This document shows, piece after piece, positions 20,693-49,314 of a stretch of DNA of 64,000 bases. Position 1 is the first letter of the stretch, and every line of letters begins with the position of its first letter. The notes under the pieces were generated by a model. That model made no database searches. It had not been told where the DNA came from and saw nothing but the letters and a program-made list of their open reading frames with translations. The stretch is from Thermoanaerobaculia bacterium (lineage in GTDB: Bacteria; Acidobacteriota; Thermoanaerobaculia; Multivoradales; UBA5704): positions 3,069-67,068 of the forward strand of contig DASYKS010000102.1 in NCBI GenBank assembly GCA_035995205.1, read 5' to 3'. The translations under genes were made by a program, and so were the position numbers.

Positions 20693-21358
20693 TCAGCCGC
20701 CGAGCAGGAGGGTCTCGCCAAGCGCGACCAGCTCGGCGACGAAGCGGTCCGGCTCGGGAGGATCGATCCAACGTACGAGTTGCCAGTCGTTGTGAGTCGC
20801 GGAGCAAAGACGGCTTGCGACATCCGGAGGAAAAACTCCCGCCGCCTTGCCTGCAGCTCCTTCGATCGCATCTCCGATCGACAAGCCGAGGTGGCAGCAG
20901 AGCCCCCAGATGTCCGCAAGATCCTTCGGTTCGTTGCGATCGAGAAGAGCCGTAATCTTGTTGGCGAGGATGTTCTCGGCGCTGTCCAGACGTCCGAGGA
21001 CGGGGTCGATTTTGACCTCTCCAACGCGCGAGGGCACGTCGTTGATCAGTTCGATCTTGAGCGACAGTTCGCCTTCGGCATCGATCCACAGCCGGACGAA
21101 TCGCGGGTCACGTACTACGAAGCGTGTCCGCCAATGTCCATCCTCGGCCCAAGCCGAAGCGGCGCGATCCACCCACAAGGAGAACTGTGGAGAGTCGTTG
21201 GCGAAGAGATCCAGATCGTCCGAGAAGCGGTGGTGCAGATAGCCGCGAGACACTGCGGTTCCACCGGACAGATAGAGGCCCGTCTCGACGCCGACGAGCG
21301 TTCGCAGCACTTCGTCCTGGAGCGGGTACAGACGCTCGAAATAGAAGCTGTTATCCAC
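20693..21358 (-). CDS. nucleotidyltransferase, AbiEii/AbiGii (DUF1814) toxin family; copy 1
   Basis: 221 aa. LSGGTAVSRGYLHHRFSDDLDLF is the characteristic DUF1814 N-terminal motif. Confidence 0.75.
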   Translation of the reverse strand: MDNSFYFERLYPLQDEVLRTLVGVETGLYLSGGTAVSRGYLHHRFSDDLDLFANDSPQFSLWVDRAASAWAEDGHWRTRFVVRDPRFVRLWIDAEGELSLKIELINDVPSRVGEVKIDPVLGRLDSAENILANKITALLDRNEPKDLADIWGLCCHLGLSIGDAIEGAAGKAAGVFPPDVASRLCSATHNDWQLVRWIDPPEPDRFVAELVALGETLLLGG

Positions 21359-25697: not shown

Positions 25698-26966
25698 ATG
25701 GAAAAAAGCTCGCTACGCCAGCTCTCGGTCCTCATGGCCACGGTGTTCGTGGACATGGTGGGCTTTCTGATCGTCCACCCCTTGCTGCCGTTCTACGCCG
25801 AGAGCCTGGGGGCGACGGCGACCGTGATCGGTCTGCTGGTGGCGATCTTTGCCGCGGCGCAGTTGCTCTCGTCTCCGATCTGGGGCCGCCTCTCCGACCG
25901 CTACGGCCGACGCCCGTTGCTGATCGCCGGGCTGCTGGTCTCGGCGGTCTCTTTCGGCCTATTCGGCTTTGCCACCTCGATCTGGATGCTGTTCGTCTTC
26001 CGCTTCGTCCAGGGGGTCGGCGGTGGAACGGTCGGCGTCGTCCAGGCTTATGTGAGCGACGCCGTTCCCCCCGAGGAACGGGCGAAGGCGCTCGGCTGGA
26101 TCACCGCGGCGACCAGCGCCGGGGTCATGATCGGCCCGCTGATCGGCTCGTACGCCACCCGGCTCGGCGCTTCGGGTCCCGGTTTCGTCGCCGCCGCGCT
26201 CTGCATCATGAACGCGATTTCGGCCTACCTCTGGCTCCCCGAGCCGGGGCGACGGAGCTCGGCGGTCAAGAGCACTGCGCCGCGTCGCTCGCTGCGCAAA
26301 TCGATCGCGGAAGTGTTGCGCGAGCCGACCTCGCCGGTCGCCTCGCTGATCTGGGTCTACGCCGTGGGGATGATGGCCTTCATGGCGATGAACGGCATCC
26401 TGGCGCTCTTCCTGGCGAAGAAGTTCGGGATCACCAAGGAATCGATCGGCTGGTTCTATACCTACGTGGGCTGCATCTCTCTCGTGATGCGCGCCTTGCT
26501 GCTCGGTCCGATGGTGCGCCGCTTCGGCGAGGTGGGCGTGATGAAGCTGGGCGCGATCTCGCTCGCGATCGGCCTTGCCGCGATCCCGTTCGCACCGAGC
26601 ATTCCGGTGCTCGCGGTAGCGGTTCTTTTCGTACCGGTCGGCACCGCCCTGCTTTTCCCCGCGACCACCGCCCTCGTATCTCACACGGCACCCGAAGGGG
26701 AGACCGGCCAGGTGATGGGCGTCCAGCAGGCGTTCGGCGGGGTCGCCCGCATGCTCGGCCCGATCTGGGCCGGCAAGGCGTTCGACGTTCTCGGTCCCCA
26801 GGCGCCGTTCTGGATGGCCGCGGCGCTGATGCTGGGAGTCGGCGGCCTCACCCACCGGATCGAGGAACCCAAAAAAGCGCCGCAGAAACCCCTCGCCGAA
26901 GATCCGGGGGTGACCGCCGATCCCCTCCGCCCGGTCGCGACGATCCCCACCATCACCCCGCGCTAG
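25698..26966 (+). CDS. MFS transporter (DHA1-like efflux family)
   Basis: 422 aa, 12 predicted TM. Motif A-like GRLSDRYGRRP. Confidence 0.85.
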   Translation: MEKSSLRQLSVLMATVFVDMVGFLIVHPLLPFYAESLGATATVIGLLVAIFAAAQLLSSPIWGRLSDRYGRRPLLIAGLLVSAVSFGLFGFATSIWMLFVFRFVQGVGGGTVGVVQAYVSDAVPPEERAKALGWITAATSAGVMIGPLIGSYATRLGASGPGFVAAALCIMNAISAYLWLPEPGRRSSAVKSTAPRRSLRKSIAEVLREPTSPVASLIWVYAVGMMAFMAMNGILALFLAKKFGITKESIGWFYTYVGCISLVMRALLLGPMVRRFGEVGVMKLGAISLAIGLAAIPFAPSIPVLAVAVLFVPVGTALLFPATTALVSHTAPEGETGQVMGVQQAFGGVARMLGPIWAGKAFDVLGPQAPFWMAAALMLGVGGLTHRIEEPKKAPQKPLAEDPGVTADPLRPVATIPTITPR

Positions 26967-27068: not shown

Positions 27069-27431
27069 TCAAGCGGCGACGACGCTGATTCGACCAGTCT
27101 TCCTGGAACGGGGCTTTCGGCGAATCACGATCTCGACGTCTTGGTCGAGCGCCGTCAACAGCTTCATCAGGCGTTCGACGGAAAACCCCGCCAATTTGTA
27201 ATGACGAAGCGCAGAGACCTTCGGCTGCGTCACTCCCAGCACTTCGGCCGCATCTGACTGCGAGAGCTTTCGCTCTTCGAGCTCTTGATTCAGGGCATAG
27301 GCCAAGCGAAGCTTGGCCTGACGTTCGGCGGCGTCGGGGAACCCCAAGTCGGCGAACACGTTTCCAGTGCCCCGGGTGATCGGTTCTTGCCGCACCCTGA
27401 CGATTATCCCAGTTCTGGGCTGATCCGGCAA
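27069..27431 (-). CDS. XRE-family HTH protein, HigA-like antitoxin-type; orphan
   Basis: 120 aa (TTG start; GTG at 27395 is an alternative). NVFADLGFPDAAE...LSQSDAAEVLGVTQPKVSALRHYKLAGFSVERLMKLLTALDQDVEIVI is the pattern of HigA-like antidotes. No toxin ORF was found on either flank. Confidence 0.55.
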   Translation of the reverse strand: MPDQPRTGIIVRVRQEPITRGTGNVFADLGFPDAAERQAKLRLAYALNQELEERKLSQSDAAEVLGVTQPKVSALRHYKLAGFSVERLMKLLTALDQDVEIVIRRKPRSRKTGRISVVAA

Positions 27432-27654: not shown

Positions 27655-27815
27655 GTCAGCCGCTGATGCTCGGGGTGGGCGGCCTCACCCGCAGGGTGGA
27701 AGAGCCCCTGAAGTCGCCGCCGATTCCTCTTGCGTCAGACTCCCCGCTCTCGATGACCATCGATCCGCTCGATCCCGCGGCCATTCAGCCGGTCGCTAAG
27801 GTAACCCCGCAGTAA
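27655..27815 (+). pseudogene. fragment homologous to the 3' end of the MFS transporter gene (copy C)
   Basis: Encodes ...LMLGVGGLTRRVEEPLKSP..., matching the MFS C-terminus AALMLGVGGLTHRIEEPKKAP. Nucleotide similarity to 26830-26880 and to copy B. Confidence 0.5.
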
Positions 27816-27861: not shown

Positions 27862-30800
27862 TCACGGCTTGAGAAGATCCTGAATGGCCCTCAATACAAC
27901 ATGCCGTTCTCGGGGGAGAAGAATAAGGTCGGCGCCCGCAGCCTGCCATACGGCCTGACCGAAAGCCATGGGTTGAAACCCCTTCACCATCGCTTCCAGT
28001 CCCTCTCGGACTACTCGCTCTGCTGTAGTTGTTTTGACGTCTTGCAGCGCCACGGCCTTGACAGCACGAACCAGCATTCGGGCCGAAGAATGGGCATCCA
28101 TCGGCGGACCAGCCAACAGGGAAAAAACTTCACGCGTGGTCTGCAGCGGTCGGCCAGGCGCGAGGGCTTCCACTAGAACTTCGGGTGACAATTCGATTCG
28201 GTAGTAATGGCGCTCAGCCATGTTCACTAACATCTTGTCACGTTCGCGCGCAGCTAATACTCCTTCTTCTGCCAGTACCTGGATCAGCGATATCGTCGAA
28301 AATGAAGAGAGCCCCAAGCCATTGCAGACTTTCCTCAAGCCCAAGTCATCGGCAAAGAGCACACCCGGCACGAACATCGCCAGCTCAAGCGCGTGGCTTG
28401 AACTTTCCCCCAAACCGGCCCGAGTCTCGCTGTGATCTTTCATTCGCTGATCACTAAACACTTCCAGAGGACGAGAGGCAACGGTAACGTTAGTCTCAAC
28501 CCAGTCGCGCAGTGCCAGAATCGATTCCCGTTCGCTGACGAGAGCAGGATCGCCCGGTTCCAAATGGTGGATCGCAAAGCCACGTTCGCTAGGAGAAAGG
28601 ACCGTCCAACCATTTTTAATTCGGTCCTCAGCCTCTGCGAGTTCCTCGTCGATCTCGACCCACAAAGATCTCGGGGCAAGCAGAGTTCTCTTATGCGTCA
28701 GTAGGTGCAGGTTTCCAAATGCCTGCGCTGTATGCAACGCTGACCGAGAGAGGATCGTTGGGAGCTGGGACCTGGCGGCATCCCTTGAGGCAAGCCTTCC
28801 CTCGTCGTGAAACTCTACATAGAACGGTCCCTCTCCTCCGAGCCGACTTAACTTCGCAATAAGGTCTGGCACCGTCACGCCGGCGAATTTCGCGAACAGA
28901 CCGAGGGGAAGGCATTTCTCATAATATAACGTCAAAAGTTCCTTTTGGTGCCGTTCTCGTTCGTGAGCCGAGCCAATTAGCGGTTGAAATTCATTGACGC
29001 CGGGGTTCTCCATATTGAAGCTGAAGCTCGTCACGAAAAATGCTGCGCCAAGAAATCGTCTCCCGTAGTTCCCGATGATGTCGTTTACGAGGTACCTGAC
29101 GACGGATTGGACTTGCTCGACCTGCCACTGGCTTTCGAAGAAGGTACCCTTGTCGCGAGTGATCACCTCCCCAATGCGAAGTCCAAGAACGCCAGCTGTT
29201 TGAGCATCTTGCACTGTAATTTCGTTTGGTAGCCGCGATGCCGCGGGAGCCGCAAATATCACATACTCCGAGGTCTTGTTGTCCCCTTCTCTGAGAAGAA
29301 CATGGGTGTCGGGTCCCACGCAATCTACCTCGACAGGTGCCGACTTCGTCTGGAGAACCATAGAGGCAAAGGCCCGATTTAGATCTGCATCGTGAGGGAG
29401 ATCCCTGAATGCCCTCATTCCCTCTTGAATTGCTGTGGCCGAATCACCAAGCTTTGAGAGTAGCTGGGCCAACCACATCCTTTCTCGCGGCGTTAACTCG
29501 GGGTTTGAGACGAGAGCGCGCGAGTGGAATCTCGCGCGATCGTGTTCATTGAGCTCCACAAGGGTTTGGGCAAGCATCAGGCGGCCACTGAAGGTTGTCA
29601 CACCTCGGCTAAATAAATCTTCAAGATGTGCGGCGCCACTTTTCGGATCATTCCGCCGGAGCGCGATCTGCGCTGCAAACCCTAATGCCCAATTTGGCAT
29701 GGGTCCTTTTTCTGCTCGATGTTCGAGCACTTCATGGGCCTCAAATAGTCGATCCGACAAGACCAACGCCTGCACGAACATTCGTTCTGCGGTCTCGGTA
29801 AGGGGACCCGCCTCTCGAAACACTTCCGCCGCCGCGTTCTCCCTCTTGGCTTGCAGCAGGCGCGAGCCGAGTTCAATCAGGTGTTCTGCTCGAAGCGCTG
29901 GGTCTAATTCAATCGCTTTACGGTATTGGCTCTCCGCCTCACTCAGGTCATTCTCGAGTACCGCAATTCGAGCAAGCGTAATGATGTGAGGTACAGAAGG
30001 CGCACGTTCACCCGAAGACATCTCACTAACCAACTTCTTAGCAAGGGCCACATCGGAAAGGAACAGTGCGGCTTCGGCGGCCGCCGCTCTAAGAACATCA
30101 GGTTCAGGCGCCGCTGCAATTGCCTGTAGAACAGCGTCGAGGTCACGCCTCGCTTTTTCCGCCTGCCCAATTCGCGCAAGTAGACAGGCACGCATTGCAA
30201 GTAACCAAGGACTATTTTCGACCACTGGTCCAACGAGAATCTCAAGCGCTCCGGCCTCGTCGCCAACCTGAACGCGAGTCGCTGCGGCGGTTTCCAATGC
30301 ACGGGTATTGTCAGGCCGAAGTGAATGAGCTCGCTCGCTATCCTCTTGGGCGTCAGTCAGGTTACCTAGAATTCTACGGGCCAGGCTTCGGTTCACCAGC
30401 GCTCGTTGTGTTCGAGCGGTAGAGAGACTCGCTTCGCCGTCCAAGACTTCGCTGCACAAGCGCTCCGCTTCCTGGGCACGAGGTAGGCGCTCTCCGTCTC
30501 CTGCGCTTTCGATATCAGCAATGAGAGTATCAGCGCGCAGCAGCAAGGCGTGAGCAGATCTGTCGCCCTCTTTGATCAACGATGCGATGACATCACGGGC
30601 CTGAGCCACCTCTCCGCTAGAGAGATGAATTTCAGCAAGGCCAAGTCGAAACTCGGAGGACGAAGCGATATCAGGGGGGATATCGATAGGCGGCTGGCCA
30701 GGCATTAAAGACAGCTGGAATCGAATCCCCCAAGCGTGCGGAGACTGTGGAGTCTTTGTGGTGGCACGTGCGGCGGTCGCGATCGCAGAGTCAGTGTCCC

Positions 30801-31752
30801 CACAAAGTGTTTGAGCTTGGGCCAGATTGACTAGCGCATTAATTCCTTCGGGATCATGATCGAGGGCCCTTTGAGCCGAATGGAGGGCATCTTGATATCG
30901 GCCCAACAGCAGAAAGGCAGTGGCTTTGTGCTGGCTAATCCTGTAAATAACTTGACCGTCTTGAATACCACTATTCCTGAAATCGGACTCGACCTCTATC
31001 AACAGGGAGAGCGCAAGTTCGGGCTCGTCGTCTCCCAGTAACTTTTTTGTGTGCCGAAGGTCGTCGTGCCATTTTCGCGTCCGACGAGGAGGTCGGACGG
31101 CTATGTTTGCCTTGGCTAGGACGTCGAGCAATGCTTGTTTAGTGCGCCGAGACTTTTCGGAGCACATAAGTGCGGCTTCTTTCTCCAGAATTGCCCAGGC
31201 AGCGACAGCTTGAGTCTCGTCTTCCAGGCTATCGGTTAGGATCTCAAGCGCTCTCGTAGCTGCCTCATCGGAATGCCTATCCAGATCAAGTGTAAGGATA
31301 TGAGTTCGCAGAGAAACATCTTTAGCCCGCTCTTTGAGAGCGGATAATATGTTTCGCGTTATATCCTTCAAGCTGTCCTGGCATCCAGATCGAAGTCGCT
31401 TCAGATCTCGCCACAAGTCATTTCGAATAGCCCGGCTTGAGGTTGAATCGACTATTAGCAGAACGGAAGTGGGGTCATCATGCCTGGAAGCATCACGGAT
31501 TGCCTCAAATGCCTCAATGCACTTCTGGGGCTTTAGCCCATGTTTTGCCTGGATTTCGAAAGGCGCCGTTCCAGCTCTAAGCTCAACTCGGGCGTCATCT
31601 CCGGGCCCCAGAACCTCGCCCGCGACTGCCGAGGGGGTATCATCGGCGAGAGATAGCCATCGGAGCTTCGTTTCCGTCAATACGTGGACGAAAACGTACG
31701 CAATGACGCTCGCTTGGTAATTGGTGCCCGCAAATGTGCCGTCGCCGCTCAC
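27862..31752 (-). CDS. large TPR repeat-containing protein of unknown function (1296 aa) in low-GC island
   Basis: Single uninterrupted ORF; GTG start with GGAGGA 4 nt upstream. N-terminal ~250-aa globular domain (MSGDGTFAGTNYQASVIAYVF...). Central TPR/alpha-solenoid region (about residues 280-800). ~450-aa C-terminal domain without a motif I recognise. No Walker A. Confidence 0.8.
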   Translation of the reverse strand: MSGDGTFAGTNYQASVIAYVFVHVLTETKLRWLSLADDTPSAVAGEVLGPGDDARVELRAGTAPFEIQAKHGLKPQKCIEAFEAIRDASRHDDPTSVLLIVDSTSSRAIRNDLWRDLKRLRSGCQDSLKDITRNILSALKERAKDVSLRTHILTLDLDRHSDEAATRALEILTDSLEDETQAVAAWAILEKEAALMCSEKSRRTKQALLDVLAKANIAVRPPRRTRKWHDDLRHTKKLLGDDEPELALSLLIEVESDFRNSGIQDGQVIYRISQHKATAFLLLGRYQDALHSAQRALDHDPEGINALVNLAQAQTLCGDTDSAIATAARATTKTPQSPHAWGIRFQLSLMPGQPPIDIPPDIASSSEFRLGLAEIHLSSGEVAQARDVIASLIKEGDRSAHALLLRADTLIADIESAGDGERLPRAQEAERLCSEVLDGEASLSTARTQRALVNRSLARRILGNLTDAQEDSERAHSLRPDNTRALETAAATRVQVGDEAGALEILVGPVVENSPWLLAMRACLLARIGQAEKARRDLDAVLQAIAAAPEPDVLRAAAAEAALFLSDVALAKKLVSEMSSGERAPSVPHIITLARIAVLENDLSEAESQYRKAIELDPALRAEHLIELGSRLLQAKRENAAAEVFREAGPLTETAERMFVQALVLSDRLFEAHEVLEHRAEKGPMPNWALGFAAQIALRRNDPKSGAAHLEDLFSRGVTTFSGRLMLAQTLVELNEHDRARFHSRALVSNPELTPRERMWLAQLLSKLGDSATAIQEGMRAFRDLPHDADLNRAFASMVLQTKSAPVEVDCVGPDTHVLLREGDNKTSEYVIFAAPAASRLPNEITVQDAQTAGVLGLRIGEVITRDKGTFFESQWQVEQVQSVVRYLVNDIIGNYGRRFLGAAFFVTSFSFNMENPGVNEFQPLIGSAHERERHQKELLTLYYEKCLPLGLFAKFAGVTVPDLIAKLSRLGGEGPFYVEFHDEGRLASRDAARSQLPTILSRSALHTAQAFGNLHLLTHKRTLLAPRSLWVEIDEELAEAEDRIKNGWTVLSPSERGFAIHHLEPGDPALVSERESILALRDWVETNVTVASRPLEVFSDQRMKDHSETRAGLGESSSHALELAMFVPGVLFADDLGLRKVCNGLGLSSFSTISLIQVLAEEGVLAARERDKMLVNMAERHYYRIELSPEVLVEALAPGRPLQTTREVFSLLAGPPMDAHSSARMLVRAVKAVALQDVKTTTAERVVREGLEAMVKGFQPMAFGQAVWQAAGADLILLPRERHVVLRAIQDLLKP

Positions 31753-31839
31753 GCCGTCCTCCGCTTAGAAGAGGTAAGGGCAGCGTAATGCCGCCTCGCA
31801 AAGAAATCCAGCACCTGCTCTCAAAGCGCATTGCCGCGC

Positions 31840-32150
31840 CGCGATCCCGTTCGCGCCAAGCATTCCGGTGCTCGCCATAGCGGTTCTGTTCGTACAGGTA
31901 GGCACCGCCCTGCTCTTCCCCGCGACCACCGCGCTCGTTTCGCGCACGGCACCGGAAGGCGAAACCGAGCCAGGTGATGGGTGTGCAGCAGGCGTTCGGC
32001 GGCGTCGGCCGTATGCTCGGGCCGATCTGGGCCGGCAAGGCGTTCGACGTCCTCGGCCCCCAGGCGCCGTTCTGGATGGCCGCGGCTCTGATGCTCGGGG
32101 TAGGGGGCCTCAGCCGTCGGGTGGACGAGCCGCTGAAGTCGCCCAAAGAC
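31840..32150 (+). pseudogene. frameshifted fragment homologous to the last ~300 nt of the MFS transporter gene (copy B)
   Basis: Roughly 85-90% nt identity by eye to 26590-26870 (…IPVLAVAVLFVPVGTALLFPATTALVS…), in the same orientation. Reading frame broken at EGETEPGDG. Confidence 0.6.
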
Positions 32151-32299
32151 CTCGAAGAAGTACCCGCATTCCCAGTGCCGACCGAGACTCTCGACCCCCG
32201 CCACGATCCAGCCGATTCCGAGCGTCACCCAGAGGTAGGCGGGTCGACACCAGCCCCAAAAGAAACAAGGCAGGCCGTGAGGCCTGCCTTGAGGATTTC

Positions 32300-32380
<81 letters not shown>

Positions 32381-32769
32381 GTGCCCCTGTCTCCAGGGGA
32401 GCGGCAGTGTCTCATAACCGGTGAGCGGTGTCAAAGATTCCCGGGCGGGCGGGCGGTAGGGCATCCGTCAAGGTCGCCGGGAGCATGCCCAATGTAGGGG
32501 CCTCTGTTGAAATTCCGAGCACCGCGCGTCAGCTTCGGCTGACCGTCGCGGGGAAGCGCGCTAGGAATGTTCCGCAGCGGCCCGGCGTTTCGACGAAGCG
32601 AAAAAACGGTTCGCGGACTCAAAGGAAGAGCGAGCGGACACTGAGAACGGAGTTTCGGGACGCGGCTCGCCGCGTTCGCGACGCGCCACCGGTTCTCCGG
32701 CGGGGGGAACCGTGAGGCGAGACGCGGAGCAGGAGCTGAACGACAAGACAAACCCCGTCGCGGATACTA

Positions 32770-33030
32770 CCGACCCCGTCGCGCACGCTACGAACCGGTG
32801 AGCGGACGCTAGACACCACTTTCCGTACACGACCCACCGGTGAGCGGACGCTAATCACCAGTGACCGGACACTACCCACTGGTGAGCGGACACTAGCAAG
32901 AGGTGAACGGACACTACGCACCACTTTTCGCACACGACTCACCGGTGGACGGACGCTTCGGAGTGGTGTTGTGACACCAGAAACCAGTGAATGGACGCAA
33001 CTCACTGGTTTTTTGCGTCCGCGAACCACT
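32770..33030. repeat. array of ~21-bp phased direct repeats (consensus GGTGAGCGGACRCTA), 7 direct copies plus one inverted copy
   Basis: Copies at 32797, 32839, 32861, 32881, 32902, 32944 and 32987; inverted copy at 33013-33027. Spacings of 20-22 or 42 bp. Confidence 0.7.
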
Positions 33031-33049
33031 TTCTAGTGTGCGCGCACCG

Positions 33050-33260
33050 GTGTTTCGTGTTGCAACACCACTTCATTGTGTTGCAACAGTGATTTCGGCG
33101 CGCGTGACCGAGGTGATTTGTGTTGCGGGAGTGACGCCTCGTGTTGCAGCAACACAGATTTGTGTCGTGTGAACGGTCCCCGGATTCGAGAAACCGGAGG
33201 TTTGTGTTGCAGTAGCAGGGCGCGCGCCGCATCAGGGGTACTTTGTCTTGCAACTCCGAG
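33050..33260. repeat. cluster of palindromic GTGTTGCAACAC-type sites (7 copies, 2-3 perfect palindromes)
   Basis: GTGTTGCAACAC at 33057-33068; TGTTGCAACA at 33079-33088; GTGTTGCAGCAACAC at 33141-33155. Degenerate half-sites near 33118, 33159, 33204 and 33244. Confidence 0.7.
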
Positions 33261-33281
33261 GGGCCGCGTCCCATAGGGACC

Positions 33282-35801: not shown

Positions 35802-36164
35802 ATGCGGCCCACGAACCCAACCACCCAGGCAATGCGCCTCCCTCCAACTTCGGAGTCCCTTCTCGACGACTCGCAGAGGCCGTATTTTCTTTGGTGGACG
35901 AACGCCACCGCTGGGGATCTCAAGGGGCATCTCGACGCCGCCGACCCGGAGGAACGCGCCTACTGGATGGGTGCCCTGCTGCGCGAGGCCAACACCCGCG
36001 ACGTTTGGCTTTTCGTGAAACCAGACGAAATCAAGGCGCTCTGGCCGCGGCTGATCCGCTATCTCGGTCGCTCGCGGGACATGTGGGCCTGGCTTCTCGA
36101 GTTCCCGAAGCCCGAGTGGCCGCCGCTCAGCCAAATCCGTGCCGATCATGCGCAAGACCTTTGA
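35802..36164 (+). CDS. small Trp-rich partner protein of NTase copy 2 (putative antitoxin-like), family unknown
   Basis: 120 aa. The core ERAYWMGALLREANTRDVWLFVKPDEIKALWPRLIRYLGRSRDMWAWLL aligns with the partners of copies 1 and 3. Confidence 0.45.
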   Translation: MRPTNPTTQAMRLPPTSESLLDDSQRPYFLWWTNATAGDLKGHLDAADPEERAYWMGALLREANTRDVWLFVKPDEIKALWPRLIRYLGRSRDMWAWLLEFPKPEWPPLSQIRADHAQDL

Positions 36165-36804
36165 TCGGCGGGTCGTCTCGGAATCCGTCCTCGCATTCGT
36201 CCGTTCCTGTCAGGAGCGGGTGCCCTGTCATTTAGGCGGAGGAGCGGCACTGGCCGGCGCCTACCTGGGGCACCGGATGACCGGCGACATCGATCTCTTC
36301 GTACATGACGCGGACGACATGCGAATCTTGGTCGATTCGCTACCCGCCCTGGTAAAGAGGGGAGGGATCTCGGTCGCCCTGCTCCGCGACGTGGGCCACC
36401 TCGTCCGCGCGCGACTTTCGGAACCGGACGGTCGTAGCGTCGAGGTCGACATCGTCCACGAACCGTCGGTCGATCTATCGGATCCCCCGCCGCCGATCGA
36501 TGGAGTGGTGGTCGAGTCACTGATGGATCTGCGAGCCAGCAAGCTGACTTGCATCCTCTCGCGTTCGGAGCCGCGAGACCTCGTCGATCTTCTGTTCCTC
36601 GATCGGGCCGGGTACCCGCCCGAGAAAGATCTGGGCCTCGCGATTCGAAAAGACGCCGGCATCGACCCAGGGGTGCTCGCGTGGCTCCTCGGTCAGTTTC
36701 CCGTGAATCCGCTGCCCGAAATGCTGGAGCCCTTGAGCCCGAAGGAACTGGAAGAGTTCCGAATCGCGCTCGCTGAGCGCCTTCGGCGCTCGACTCTGCC
36801 GTAA
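36139..36804 (+). CDS. nucleotidyltransferase, AbiEii/AbiGii (DUF1814) toxin family; copy 2
   Basis: 221 aa with LGGGAALAGAYLGHRMTGDIDLF. Overlaps its partner gene; ATG at 36148 is an alternative start. Confidence 0.75.
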   Translation: MPIMRKTFDRRVVSESVLAFVRSCQERVPCHLGGGAALAGAYLGHRMTGDIDLFVHDADDMRILVDSLPALVKRGGISVALLRDVGHLVRARLSEPDGRSVEVDIVHEPSVDLSDPPPPIDGVVVESLMDLRASKLTCILSRSEPRDLVDLLFLDRAGYPPEKDLGLAIRKDAGIDPGVLAWLLGQFPVNPLPEMLEPLSPKELEEFRIALAERLRRSTLP

Positions 36805-43571: not shown

Positions 43572-43647
43572 GGGTCCATAGCTCAGCGGTGAGAGCATCC
43601 GGCTCATAACCGGCAGGTCCCTGGTTCAAATCCAGGTGGACCCACCA
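43572..43647 (+). tRNA. tRNA-Met (CAT anticodon; elongator type, or tRNA-Ile2 if lysidinylated), CCA encoded
   Basis: GGGTCCATAGCTCAGCGGTGAGAGCATCCGGCTCATAACCGGCAGGTCCCTGGTTCAAATCCAGGTGGACCCACCA. A full cloverleaf was checked by hand: 7-bp acceptor stem, CTCATAA anticodon loop. Confidence 0.85.
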
Positions 43648-48250: not shown

Positions 48251-48580
48251 ATGCCCGGGCCGAGCCCGGCTGGCGACCTGCGTGGGATTCCGGCACCGCT
48301 CGCCGAACGGCTGTTTCCCGATATCGCGCGCGGGGATCTGACGCTCGAATCTTCCCCGGGCGGGTCCCGCTCGCTCGTGCTCGCCCGCCTGCTGGAAGAT
48401 GGCGACCGCGCCGATCTCGCCTGGTTGTTCGCCGCGTTGCCGGAAGGGGAGATCGCCGCCTGGCTCGGTGCGCACGGCGGGCGCAAGCTGTCGCGCCGGA
48501 GCGCCGCCTATTGGCAGACCGTTCTGGGAATCCCCGCGGGACCCCCCGCCGCGGGGCGCGCGGATCTCTGGCCGTTGTGA
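48251..48580 (+). CDS. small Trp-rich partner protein of NTase copy 3 (putative antitoxin-like), family unknown
   Basis: 109 aa. DRADLAWLFAALPEGEIAAWLGAHGGRKLSRRSAAYWQTVLG aligns with the partners at 21351 and 35802. Confidence 0.45.
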   Translation: MPGPSPAGDLRGIPAPLAERLFPDIARGDLTLESSPGGSRSLVLARLLEDGDRADLAWLFAALPEGEIAAWLGAHGGRKLSRRSAAYWQTVLGIPAGPPAAGRADLWPL

Positions 48581-48597
48581 GATCCTCGCCCGCGGTC

Positions 48598-49314
48598 ATG
48601 AGCCCCACCGCCGCCGAACCGAATCTCGCTCTCGACCATCGAGAGGCCCTGGCGCCGCAGAGCGCCGCGCTCGCCGCCCGGTTCGGCGCGGCGGGTTGGG
48701 CGGCGGACTTCTATCTCGCGGGATCGGCGGCGCTCGCGCTCTATCTCGGCCATCGGCCGGTGCGCGATCTCGACCTTATGAGCAACGCGAACCGGTTGAC
48801 GCCCCCCGATCGCCGCGACCTGCTCGGCGCGCTGCTCGAAATGGAGCCCGGCACCGAGGTCGAGACCGCGCGTGACGGCTATCTATTTGTTCGCATGCCA
48901 GGGATGGCTCCCGAGACTGCAGGGGTCGGCGTCCGATTCTTCTATTACCCCTACCCGCTCGCCGACGCGTTCGAGGAGATCGAGGGTTTCTCGGTCGCCT
49001 CGGCCGTCGATCTCGGCCTGATGAAGCTCGGCGCGATCATCAGCCGGGGCACGCGGCGCGATTTCGTCGACCTCTACCTGCTCTGCCGTCGGCTGTCGCT
49101 TTCCGAGTTGCTCGCGCGCGCCGAGGACAAGTTCGGCCACGTGCGCGACTTTCCGCTCCAGGCGCTCAAGGGGCTCGCCGATTTTTCCGCGGCGGCCGAC
49201 GAACCGATGCCGAAGCTCGCGCAGCCGTTGGCTTGGGAAGAGGTGGAAAGCTGGTTCGCCGAGCAGGTGCGCACCCTAGGCCGCGAGCATGCCGGCCTGG
49301 GAGAGTCGAAATGA
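48598..49314 (+). CDS. nucleotidyltransferase, AbiEii/AbiGii (DUF1814) toxin family; copy 3
   Basis: Start MSPTAAEP; a GTG at 48577 overlapping the partner stop (GTGA) is an alternative. Motif FYLAGSAALALYLGHRPVRDLDLM. The stop overlaps the hutI ATG. Confidence 0.75.
   Translation: MSPTAAEPNLALDHREALAPQSAALAARFGAAGWAADFYLAGSAALALYLGHRPVRDLDLMSNANRLTPPDRRDLLGALLEMEPGTEVETARDGYLFVRMPGMAPETAGVGVRFFYYPYPLADAFEEIEGFSVASAVDLGLMKLGAIISRGTRRDFVDLYLLCRRLSLSELLARAEDKFGHVRDFPLQALKGLADFSAAADEPMPKLAQPLAWEEVESWFAEQVRTLGREHAGLGESK

What the first reader, a model, noticed from the sequence alone, without database searches (positions are those of the whole stretch)
27862..31752. Low-GC 3.9-kb gene for a 1296-aa TPR protein of unknown function, inserted beside initiator tRNA: candidate undescribed single-gene system
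GC drops from ~70% to ~50% exactly over this gene, so it is foreign DNA. The context is typical of horizontally acquired accessory loci. It lies 3' of a tRNA. It is flanked by displaced copies of a host gene end. It has an XRE/HigA-like HTH gene next to it. Three AbiEii-type modules sit elsewhere in the window. Seen directly: a ~250-aa N-terminal globular domain (MSGDGTFAGTNYQASVIAYVFVHVL...GDDARVELRAGTAPFEIQAKHG); a central TPR/alpha-solenoid stretch; a ~450-aa C-terminal domain with no catalytic motif I can name. There is no Walker A, so it is not a STAND/AVAST NTPase. It has no SIR2, TIR or HEPN hallmark I can verify. A D...QxK pattern in the N-domain could be a PD-(D/E)xK-like nuclease remnant, but that is speculation.
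Basis: partly seen in the sequence, partly recalled or inferred. Interest (0 to 1): 0.8.

Follow-up and report, generated by a model that had tools for sequence, protein, structure and literature searches.

The report
Nuclease-tipped TPR-GreA/B-C-PIN defence gene
The low-GC 1296-codon gene is real and looks like horizontally acquired anti-phage immunity, but it is not an undescribed system: it belongs to the already catalogued TPR-GreA/B-C-PIN ("TGP") family, here carrying a Cap4-like DNA-cutting domain at its N-terminus.

Summary
An intact 1296-codon ORF lies at 27862-31752 (-). Its GC is 0.55 (GC3 0.54) against 0.68 in the flanks (GC3 0.88). It sits beside an initiator tRNA-Met and is bracketed by duplicated 3' ends of the neighbouring MFS transporter gene.

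REase-TPR-GreA/B-C-PIN is the architecture Kaur et al. (eLife 2021) defined as a mostly standalone conflict system; Pfam PF20698 models its PIN. A two-gene E. coli relative, Bab/Agp, protects against phage T5 (bioRxiv 2024).

Homologues are sporadic across at least four bacterial lineages. They lie beside R-M, SIR2, Mrr, TA and IS genes.

The likely mechanism is inferred, not shown: docking on RNA polymerase, sensing of phage takeover, then nuclease-driven abortive infection.

One oddity: a near-invariant PIN aspartate is histidine in this copy.

Verdict: new member of a known kind. Interest is modest.

The parts
27862..31752 (-). [quoted passage not shown] GTG start at 31752-31750, TGA stop at 27864-27862.
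   Evidence: ORF listing and translation. Full-length homologues of the same length. GC 0.549 against 0.685 in the flanks.
31757..31762 (-). Shine-Dalgarno GGAGGA, 4 nt upstream of the GTG start
   Evidence: Read directly from the sequence.
31078..31752 (-). N-terminal effector, residues 1-225: Cap4-like PD-(D/E)xK (restriction-endonuclease fold) nuclease. Invariant D53 (31594-31596), E66 (31555-31557), Q68 and K70 (31543-31545) lie on strands beta2 and beta3.
29353..31035 (-). TPR / alpha-solenoid region, residues about 240-800: presumed sensor or oligomerisation scaffold
   Evidence: Pfam TPR_19 55.5 bits, TPR_2 53.3 bits, TPR_16, TPR_14 and TPR_8, all above their cut-offs. The best stretches are residues 277-343 and 592-619. 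The rest of the region was not modelled.
29098..29319 (-). GreA/B C-terminal (FKBP-like) domain, residues about 812-885: presumed RNA-polymerase docking module
28303..28767 (-). PIN domain, residues about 996-1150 (PF20698 type). Family-conserved E1037, D1135 and D1136. The near-invariant Asp at residue 1120 is His here (codon CAC, 28393-28395).
27865..28302 (-). C-terminal helical bundle, residues 1151-1296, of unknown role
31833..32158 (+). Island boundary: frameshifted remnant of the MFS gene 3' end (codons about 294-397), between the gene's 5' end and tRNA-fMet
   Evidence: Direct repeats D1/D2, 87-88% identical to 26572-26869. Alignment. tblastn gives two frames.
26572..26966 (+). Island boundary: the 3' end now in use by the intact MFS gene (25698-26966)

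Best explanation
The gene encodes a single-polypeptide member of the TPR-GreA/B-C-PIN (TGP) conflict-system family, in its REase-effector form.

Shown here:
- The domain order is Cap4-like PD-(D/E)xK nuclease, then a TPR array, then a GreA/B C-terminal domain, then a PIN domain, then a helical tail.
- The nuclease triad is intact.
- The gene is compositionally foreign and lies in a variable slot.
- Relatives are sporadic and embedded in defence islands.

Inferred, following Kaur et al. 2021 and the Bab/Agp experiments:
- The GreA/B-C domain docks on the beta' coiled coil at the secondary channel of RNA polymerase.
- The TPR array perceives phage-induced alteration of the transcription complex, or a phage protein.
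- The PIN domain may cut the extruded transcript.
- Activation, probably by oligomerisation, switches on the N-terminal Cap4-like nuclease. Such nucleases are activated this way in Cap4 and Avs3. The nuclease then degrades DNA indiscriminately and aborts the infection.
For: Domain identities:
- Invariant D53, E66, Q68 and K70.
- Concordant weak profile hits to GreA, Rnk and GreB.
- PF20698 is hit weakly here and clearly in homologues.

Family description and experiment:
- Kaur et al. 2021 define the system and list REase among its N-terminal effectors.
- Bab/Agp blocks T5. It loses defence on GreA/B-C point mutations and on a PIN mutation.

Ecology:
- Only 7 full-length relatives turned up in 185,579 species genomes with the N-domain patterns. 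They come from Acidobacteriota, Myxococcota, Gemmatimonadota and Chloroflexota.
- Neighbours include type I R-M, SIR2_2 with a type III-like R-M, Mrr, BrxC/D-like with TerB, BrnA, M78/DUF4411, transposases and a D5 primase element.
- No neighbour is conserved, which fits a standalone gene.
- The same N-domain is fused to NACHT-HEAT proteins elsewhere, so it is a modular immune effector.
- GC/GC3 anomaly.
Against: - No function was tested here, and none was found in the searched literature for the single-gene REase form. The only validated relative uses a separate amyloid-triggered pore-like effector.
- PF20698 scores below Pfam's cut-off on this protein (19.8 against 27.8 bits).
- The position where canonical PIN domains have their first Asp is Thr/Ser in the whole subfamily, by my reading of the alignment.
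- The third acidic position, D in 30 of 31 aligned homologues, is His in this copy. PIN RNase activity may therefore be impaired or absent.
- RNA polymerase binding is inferred from fold alone. The GreA 'SP..G.LG' surface is only loosely kept.
- PADLOC-DB v2 has no model that recognises the core.
- The core has no tblastn match in the phage or plasmid collections.
Confidence: 0.75

Rival explanations
1. The gene is a decaying or functionally crippled copy. It belongs to the TGP family but no longer works as a complete system, because its PIN active site carries D1120H.
For: His replaces Asp at a column that is Asp in 30 of 31 aligned homologues, and in 47 of 50 motif-matched family members. 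The neighbouring TA module in the same island has visibly decayed: its toxin is deleted.
Against: The 3.9-kb ORF is uninterrupted and matches its homologues in length. The nuclease motif and D1135/D1136 are intact. A single conservative-size change need not abolish function, and His can ligate metal. The same sequence was recovered on two contigs.
Confidence: 0.12
2. The gene is a TGP-type protein whose natural role is not anti-phage. It could be a transcription-coupled toxin used in plasmid or mobile-element competition or addiction, or a stress-responsive regulator of host RNA polymerase.
For: One homologue lies in an element with a D5 primase and ParB, and others are flanked by IS elements. 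Gre-like domains ordinarily regulate host transcription. TA genes are neighbours.
Against: The dominant association is with R-M, SIR2, Mrr and BREX-like genes. The one tested family member is an abortive-infection system. The N-domain's closest structures are all phage-defence effectors.
Confidence: 0.1
3. The gene is a housekeeping TPR scaffold, such as a PilW/PilF-type, PEP-CTERM PrsT-type or exopolysaccharide-export assembly factor, that merely has unusual composition.
For: NCBIfam lists PrsT, PilW, MamA and PgaA as its top hits. One related genome has the gene in the same tRNA-fMet/MFS slot.
Against: Those hits cover only generic TPRs and fall far below cut-off: 51.9 against 312 bits, and 28.5 against 154 bits. 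The protein carries two nuclease folds and a Gre-C domain. It is absent from nearly all genomes. The syntenic copy is 65% identical while the flanks are 84-95% identical, and it is also low-GC.
Confidence: 0.02

Closest known systems
TPR-GreA/B-C-PIN ('TGP') conflict systems, REase-effector form (Kaur, Iyer, Burroughs & Aravind, eLife 2021, PMC8195603; Pfam PF20698 PIN-TPR-GreABC)
   Same: It has the same constant core in the same order: TPR array, GreA/B C-terminal domain, divergent PIN. It has a variable N-terminal effector, here a restriction-endonuclease-fold DNase. It is a standalone gene without conserved neighbours, is sporadically distributed, and its core evolves fast.
   Different: Several of the listed REase forms are named DUF4365 proteins in the source data. 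This N-domain hits no Pfam nuclease model and is structurally closest to Cap4/DUF4297-type nucleases. I could not tell whether this exact subfamily is in their table with its N-domain recognised. This copy has D1120H in the PIN.
Bab/Agp abortive-infection system of E. coli ECOR25 (Ibarlosa et al., bioRxiv 2024, 10.1101/2024.11.07.622273)
   Same: Agp is a TGP protein. Defence against T5 needs its GreA/B-C domain and was lost with a PIN mutation, though that mutant was also unstable. The N-terminus transmits the signal to the effector.
   Different: Agp (1094 aa) has a 25-residue amyloid motif in place of an enzymatic N-domain, and it works with a separate membrane-targeting protein, Bab. Here the effector is a fused nuclease, and no Bab-like gene is adjacent.
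Cap4-type nuclease effectors of defence systems: CBASS Cap4, SeAvs3 N-domain, Lamassu LmuA, Hachiman HamA
   Same: They share the fold, and the D...ExK-type motif sits on the same strands. The domain is used as a modular N-terminal killing domain attached to a sensor. Close sequence relatives of this N-domain are fused to NACHT-HEAT NLR-like proteins.
   Different: The sensor and regulator differ. There is no SAVED domain, no STAND NTPase, no SMC-like partner and no helicase partner. The nuclease is instead joined to a nucleotide-independent TPR-GreC-PIN module. There is no Pfam PF14130 hit.

Membership tests
TPR-GreA/B-C-PIN (TGP) conflict system | TPR repeat array preceding the core | tested here: met
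   Pfam TPR_19, TPR_2, TPR_16, TPR_14 and TPR_8 score above their cut-offs. The best stretches are residues 277-343 and 592-619.
TPR-GreA/B-C-PIN (TGP) conflict system | GreA/B C-terminal (FKBP-like) domain between the TPRs and the PIN | tested here: met
TPR-GreA/B-C-PIN (TGP) conflict system | C-terminal PIN domain of the PF20698 type | tested here: met
TPR-GreA/B-C-PIN (TGP) conflict system | Intact PIN acidic active-site residues | tested here: inconclusive
   E1037, D1135 and D1136 are present. The near-invariant Asp at residue 1120 is His in this copy. The beta1 position is Thr/Ser in the whole subfamily. The mapping to canonical PIN positions rests on secondary-structure order only.
TPR-GreA/B-C-PIN (TGP) conflict system | Variable N-terminal effector or effector-associated domain | tested here: met
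   Cap4-like REase domain. REase is one of the effector classes named by Kaur et al..
TPR-GreA/B-C-PIN (TGP) conflict system | Mostly standalone gene with no conserved partner | tested here: met
   Neighbours differ in every locus examined. The HTH neighbour is found next to only one other homologue, and there on the other side of the gene.
TPR-GreA/B-C-PIN (TGP) conflict system | Binds RNA polymerase and protects against phage | not testable with these tools
   Only literature on the relative Agp is available.
Cap4-like (DUF4297-type) PD-(D/E)xK defence nucleases | Restriction-endonuclease core fold with catalytic D...(D/E)xK on beta2/beta3, plus the helical extension | tested here: met
Cap4-like (DUF4297-type) PD-(D/E)xK defence nucleases | Sequence match to the Pfam model (PF14130) or to PDB Cap4 sequences | tested here: not met
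   No nuclease family appears in Pfam at E up to 10. A profile search of PDB sequences finds nothing relevant. The relationship is therefore at fold level only.
STAND / Avs / NLR-like NTPases | Walker A/B NTPase domain | tested here: not met
   No [GA]xxxxGK[ST] motif and no NTPase family in Pfam. Only the N-domain is shared with NACHT proteins.
Housekeeping TPR assembly factors (PrsT, PilW, PgaA) | Score above the NCBIfam equivalog cut-off | tested here: not met
   51.9 against 312.2 bits, 28.5 against 154 bits, and 17.5 against 366.7 bits.

The most novel reading that the evidence does not exclude
This clade contains at least about 118 distinct 50%-identity clusters in the sequences fetched. 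It could be an NTPase-free, single-polypeptide RNA-polymerase surveillance system that uses the same Cap4-like DNase module as NACHT/Avs-type bacterial NLRs. If so, one killing domain is exchanged between nucleotide-switch sensors and a transcription-complex sensor. The natural D1120H variant here would then suggest that the PIN acts as a regulatory or RNA-binding module rather than an obligatory RNase. Separately, the stacked MFS 3'-end remnants may record integrase-free, Campbell-type insertion of defence cargo by homologous recombination at a tRNA-fMet/MFS hotspot.
Probability: 0.25. Interest if true: 0.5.

Novelty: new member of a known kind. Interest (0 to 1): 0.3.

Why it matters
TGP proteins are among the few proposed immune sensors that would monitor the host transcription machinery directly. 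Only one, a two-gene amyloid-signalling variant, has been tested.

A compact single-gene form with a fused, well-understood nuclease effector would be a convenient subject for asking three things:
- how a Gre-like domain senses phage takeover of RNA polymerase;
- whether the PIN is catalytic;
- how the effector is switched on.

For genome annotation, the case shows two practical points. This clade's nuclease domain is invisible to Pfam and PADLOC v2. The JGI call for this contig also truncates it: the public call starts 195 codons late.

None of this overturns current understanding. The finding is a correct catch of a defence gene, not a new kind of system.

Tried and rejected
- Whole-protein Pfam, NCBIfam and PADLOC scans gave only TPRs and a weak PDC-M54A hit on the helical part of the N-domain. 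Splitting the protein was needed to see PF20698.
- Profile searches of PDB sequences found nothing significant for either end. Fold comparison was decisive instead.
- The HTH_37 gene as a system partner or regulator was rejected. It is 92% identical to the antitoxin of a Gp49-HTH_37 pair in L003. Here the toxin is deleted, and the gene is missing beside most homologues.
- A STAND/AVAST reading was rejected because there is no Walker A motif.
- A housekeeping TPR scaffold was rejected.
- Classical tRNA-targeted integrase island: no integrase-sized ORF lies between 26966 and 32300 apart from the two genes, and an MFS-gene remnant separates the gene from the tRNA. The insertion target was therefore the MFS 3' end, not the tRNA.
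- tblastn of the core against the phage and plasmid collections gave no hit. The N-domain hit one Rhizobium plasmid at 28% identity.
- The afdb50 fold library was unavailable.
- I looked for the published PIN alignment and for Agp's sequence, to map catalytic residues. Neither is held.
- Rfam found only the two tRNAs.
Full report
**1. The observation**

The minus strand carries one uninterrupted ORF from 31752 (GTG) to 27862 (TGA), 1296 codons. A GGAGGA Shine-Dalgarno lies four bases before the start.

A search of 5.8 billion proteins returned 34 clear relatives. Most are 1290-1320 aa long and share the N-terminus MSG(D/N)(A/G)TF, so the long reading is the gene. The JGI call on the same metagenome contig (P0001, 1101 aa) starts 195 codons too late and loses the catalytic part of the N-domain.

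Composition is anomalous exactly over the gene. GC is 0.549 (GC3 0.54), against 0.685 in the flanks and GC3 of 0.88-0.89 in the neighbouring MFS and MacB genes.

The tRNA at 32301-32377 (-) is an initiator tRNA-Met, with the C1/A72 mismatch and the GGG/CCC anticodon stem. A strong terminator hairpin follows it at 32266-32291.

- The 3' end of the MFS gene (26572-26896) is repeated at 31833-32158 (87-88% identical, frameshifted), and a shorter copy lies at about 27661-27815.
- An HTH_37 gene lies at 27069-27395.
- Three AbiEii genes are in the window.
- There is no Walker A motif.

**2. What the protein is**

Whole-protein scans showed only TPRs. Scanned alone, the C-terminal third gave a weak hit to Pfam PF20698, 'PIN domain associated with the TPR-GreAB-C-PIN system'. 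The score was E=9.7e-4 at 19.8 bits, against a cut-off of 27.8 bits. The same family is on record for most homologues.

I modelled the two ends with alignments of homologues.

N-terminal end (residues 1-262, pLDDT 88.6):
- It has the alpha-beta-beta-beta-alpha-beta core of restriction-endonuclease-fold enzymes, followed by a helical extension.
- D53 sits before strand 2, and E66-x-Q68-x-K70 sit on strand 3. All four are invariant in 31 sequences.
- This is the most conserved part of the protein.

C-terminal end (residues 800-1296, pLDDT 86):
- A family profile also aligns residues about 815-880 to GreA, Rnk and GreB. The E-values (0.14-2) are individually insignificant but concordant.

The resulting domain order is:
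- Cap4-like REase (1-225);
- TPR array (about 240-800);
- GreA/B-C domain (about 812-885);
- linker;
- PIN domain (about 996-1150);
- helical tail.

**3. Relation to what is known**

[quoted passage not shown] They note that it occurs mostly as a standalone gene.

They proposed the following mechanism. The Gre-C domain engages the beta' coiled coil of RNA polymerase hijacked by a virus. The PIN cleaves the extruded transcript. If that fails, the N-terminal effector is unleashed.

Their source table lists the architecture 'REase+TPR+GreAB-C+PIN' in many genomes, with lengths of 1113-1527 aa. Several of these entries are named DUF4365 proteins.

A 2024 preprint (10.1101/2024.11.07.622273) showed that the E. 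coli ECOR25 TGP protein Agp, together with the small protein Bab, gives abortive-infection resistance to T5. Two GreA/B-C point mutations and one PIN mutation abolish the resistance.

My own profile of the Gre-C+PIN core found 2,659 representatives at E<=1e-3 among 1.84 billion cluster representatives, and 383 at E<=1e-30. Six of seven more distant hits scanned score above Pfam's cut-off for PF20698, so this is the same family.

The window's gene is thus a typical member of a sizeable clade.

The finding is therefore not an undescribed system. It is a new member of a known, computationally defined kind, whose single-gene REase form I did not find tested experimentally in the library searched. 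PADLOC-DB v2 does not recognise the core.

**4. Ecology and context**

With N-domain peptide patterns, only seven full-length relatives turned up in one-genome-per-species GTDB contigs. They come from:
- Thermoanaerobaculia, Vicinamibacterales and Bryobacterales (all Acidobacteriota);
- Corallococcus (Myxococcota);
- Gemmatimonas;
- Chloroflexia.

Six further loci, three confirmed by Pfam, have only the N-domain, fused to NACHT NTPases with HEAT repeats. This shows that the nuclease is a portable immune effector.

Neighbourhoods of homologues include:
- type I R-M, with M78/DUF4411;
- SIR2_2 with methylase and ResIII, BrnA and a transposase;
- BrxC/D-like with TerB and a helicase, flanked by IS elements;
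- type I R-M and Mrr;
- a D5-primase/ParB element.

No neighbour is conserved.

One relative, the Thermoanaerobaculia MAG locus L002, has the gene in the very same slot: tRNA-fMet, then TGP, then the convergent MFS gene. There the flanks are 84% (MFS side) and 95% (tRNA) identical in DNA. The TGP genes are only 69.5% identical in DNA and 65% in protein, and both are low-GC. That pattern fits a hotspot with allele turnover, or very fast evolution.

**5. The island**

Read along the plus strand, the order is:
- intact MFS gene;
- HTH_37 (-);
- a short MFS-end remnant;
- TGP (-);
- a longer, frameshifted MFS-end remnant;
- terminator;
- tRNA-fMet (-).

Nested, progressively shorter remnants of the same gene end are what two successive single-crossover insertions would leave. 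Each insertion would be of a DNA circle carrying a piece of a relative's MFS gene plus adjacent cargo. L002 shows such an adjacency of TGP and the MFS 3' end. This reading is inference. No integrase-sized ORF lies in the island.

The HTH gene is not a partner of TGP:
- In L003 its 92%-identical counterpart follows a Gp49/HigB-type toxin gene (Pfam E=4e-19) and lies upstream of TGP.
- In the window only about 30 nt of the toxin gene survive, fused to the antitoxin's 5' end.

**6. Mechanism and caveats**

Shown:
- the folds and their order;
- intact REase residues;
- the foreign composition;
- the defence-island company.

Inferred from the literature on relatives:
- docking on RNA polymerase through the Gre-C domain;
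- sensing through the TPRs;
- activation of the Cap4-like DNase, which in Cap4 and Avs3 requires oligomerisation, leading to abortive infection.

Caveats:
- In the PIN domain, the subfamily lacks an Asp at the position after strand 1 where canonical PINs have their first Asp (consensus 'VVLTRSAL').
- In this copy the near-invariant Asp at residue 1120 (consensus 'SS.DALELA') is His, codon CAC at 28393-28395. The column is Asp in 30 of 31 aligned homologues, and in 47 of 50 motif-matched proteins, with His only in this gene.
- The PIN may therefore be inactive here, or it may tolerate His.
- The residue mapping onto canonical PIN sites rests on secondary-structure order, not on a structural superposition.
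- RNA polymerase binding and nuclease activity are untested.

**7. Verdict**

The gene is foreign and defence-like, and the nuclease guess was right. It is wrong that the system is undescribed and that the HTH belongs to it.
- Novelty: new member of a known kind.
- Interest: 0.3. A specialist would recognise the family at once. The value lies in a clean single-gene example with a recognisable effector, a natural PIN variant, and an instructive insertion scar.

Noticed in passing
window 27069-27431 (-); L003 2195-2960 (+): The HTH_37 gene is an orphan antitoxin. In L003 the 92%-identical gene follows a 146-aa Gp49/HigB-type toxin (Pfam E=4e-19). In the window only about 30 nt of the toxin's 5' end remain, fused to the antitoxin start, which implies a deletion of about 400 bp.
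   Followed up: yes
window 28393-28395 (codon 1120 of the gene): A near-invariant PIN aspartate is histidine (CAC) in this copy only. The column is D in 30 of 31 aligned homologues, and in 47 of 50 motif-matched proteins. It is unclear whether this inactivates the PIN.
   Followed up: partly
window 26572-26966, 27661-27815, 31833-32158: There are three copies of the MFS gene's 3' end: one in use and two remnants of different length, nested around the HTH and TGP genes. This looks like the scar of two successive single-crossover insertions without an integrase. The related genome L002 has TGP in the same slot without remnants.
   Followed up: partly
window 32440-33280: Non-coding stretch between tRNA-fMet and the MacB-like gene. 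It contains degenerate 21/42-nt tandem repeats (32752-32922, unit about ACCGGTGAGCGGACACTA...) and several copies of GTGTTGCAACA-like motifs (33055-33210). GC dips to 0.565. There is no Rfam match. Function unknown.
   Followed up: partly
window 20693-21358 (-), 36139-36804 (+), 48511-49314 (+): Three diverged AbiEii-type nucleotidyltransferase toxin genes (28-38% identical to each other). Each has a small upstream ORF that has no Pfam hit.
   Followed up: partly
P0001, P0007, P0008 (public gene calls); window 31168-31752: The public metagenome gene call for this window's gene (P0001, 1101 aa) starts 195 codons downstream of the real start. It therefore omits the catalytic core of the nuclease domain. 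Two homologues (P0007, 1105 aa; P0008, 1025 aa) are similarly short.
   Followed up: yes
L007, L009, L010, L012 (Stenotrophomonas maltophilia), L014, L015: The same Cap4-like N-domain (30-37% identity) heads NACHT NTPase proteins of 940-1330 aa with HEAT repeats. These are NLR/Avs-like proteins that share the effector with the TGP clade.
   Followed up: partly
window 43572-43647 (+); L002 813-886 (-): A second, elongator-type tRNA(CAT) lies about 11 kb from the initiator tRNA. The related genome L002 also has both, about 6.8 kb apart, so the segment between them differs in content between the two genomes.
   Followed up: no
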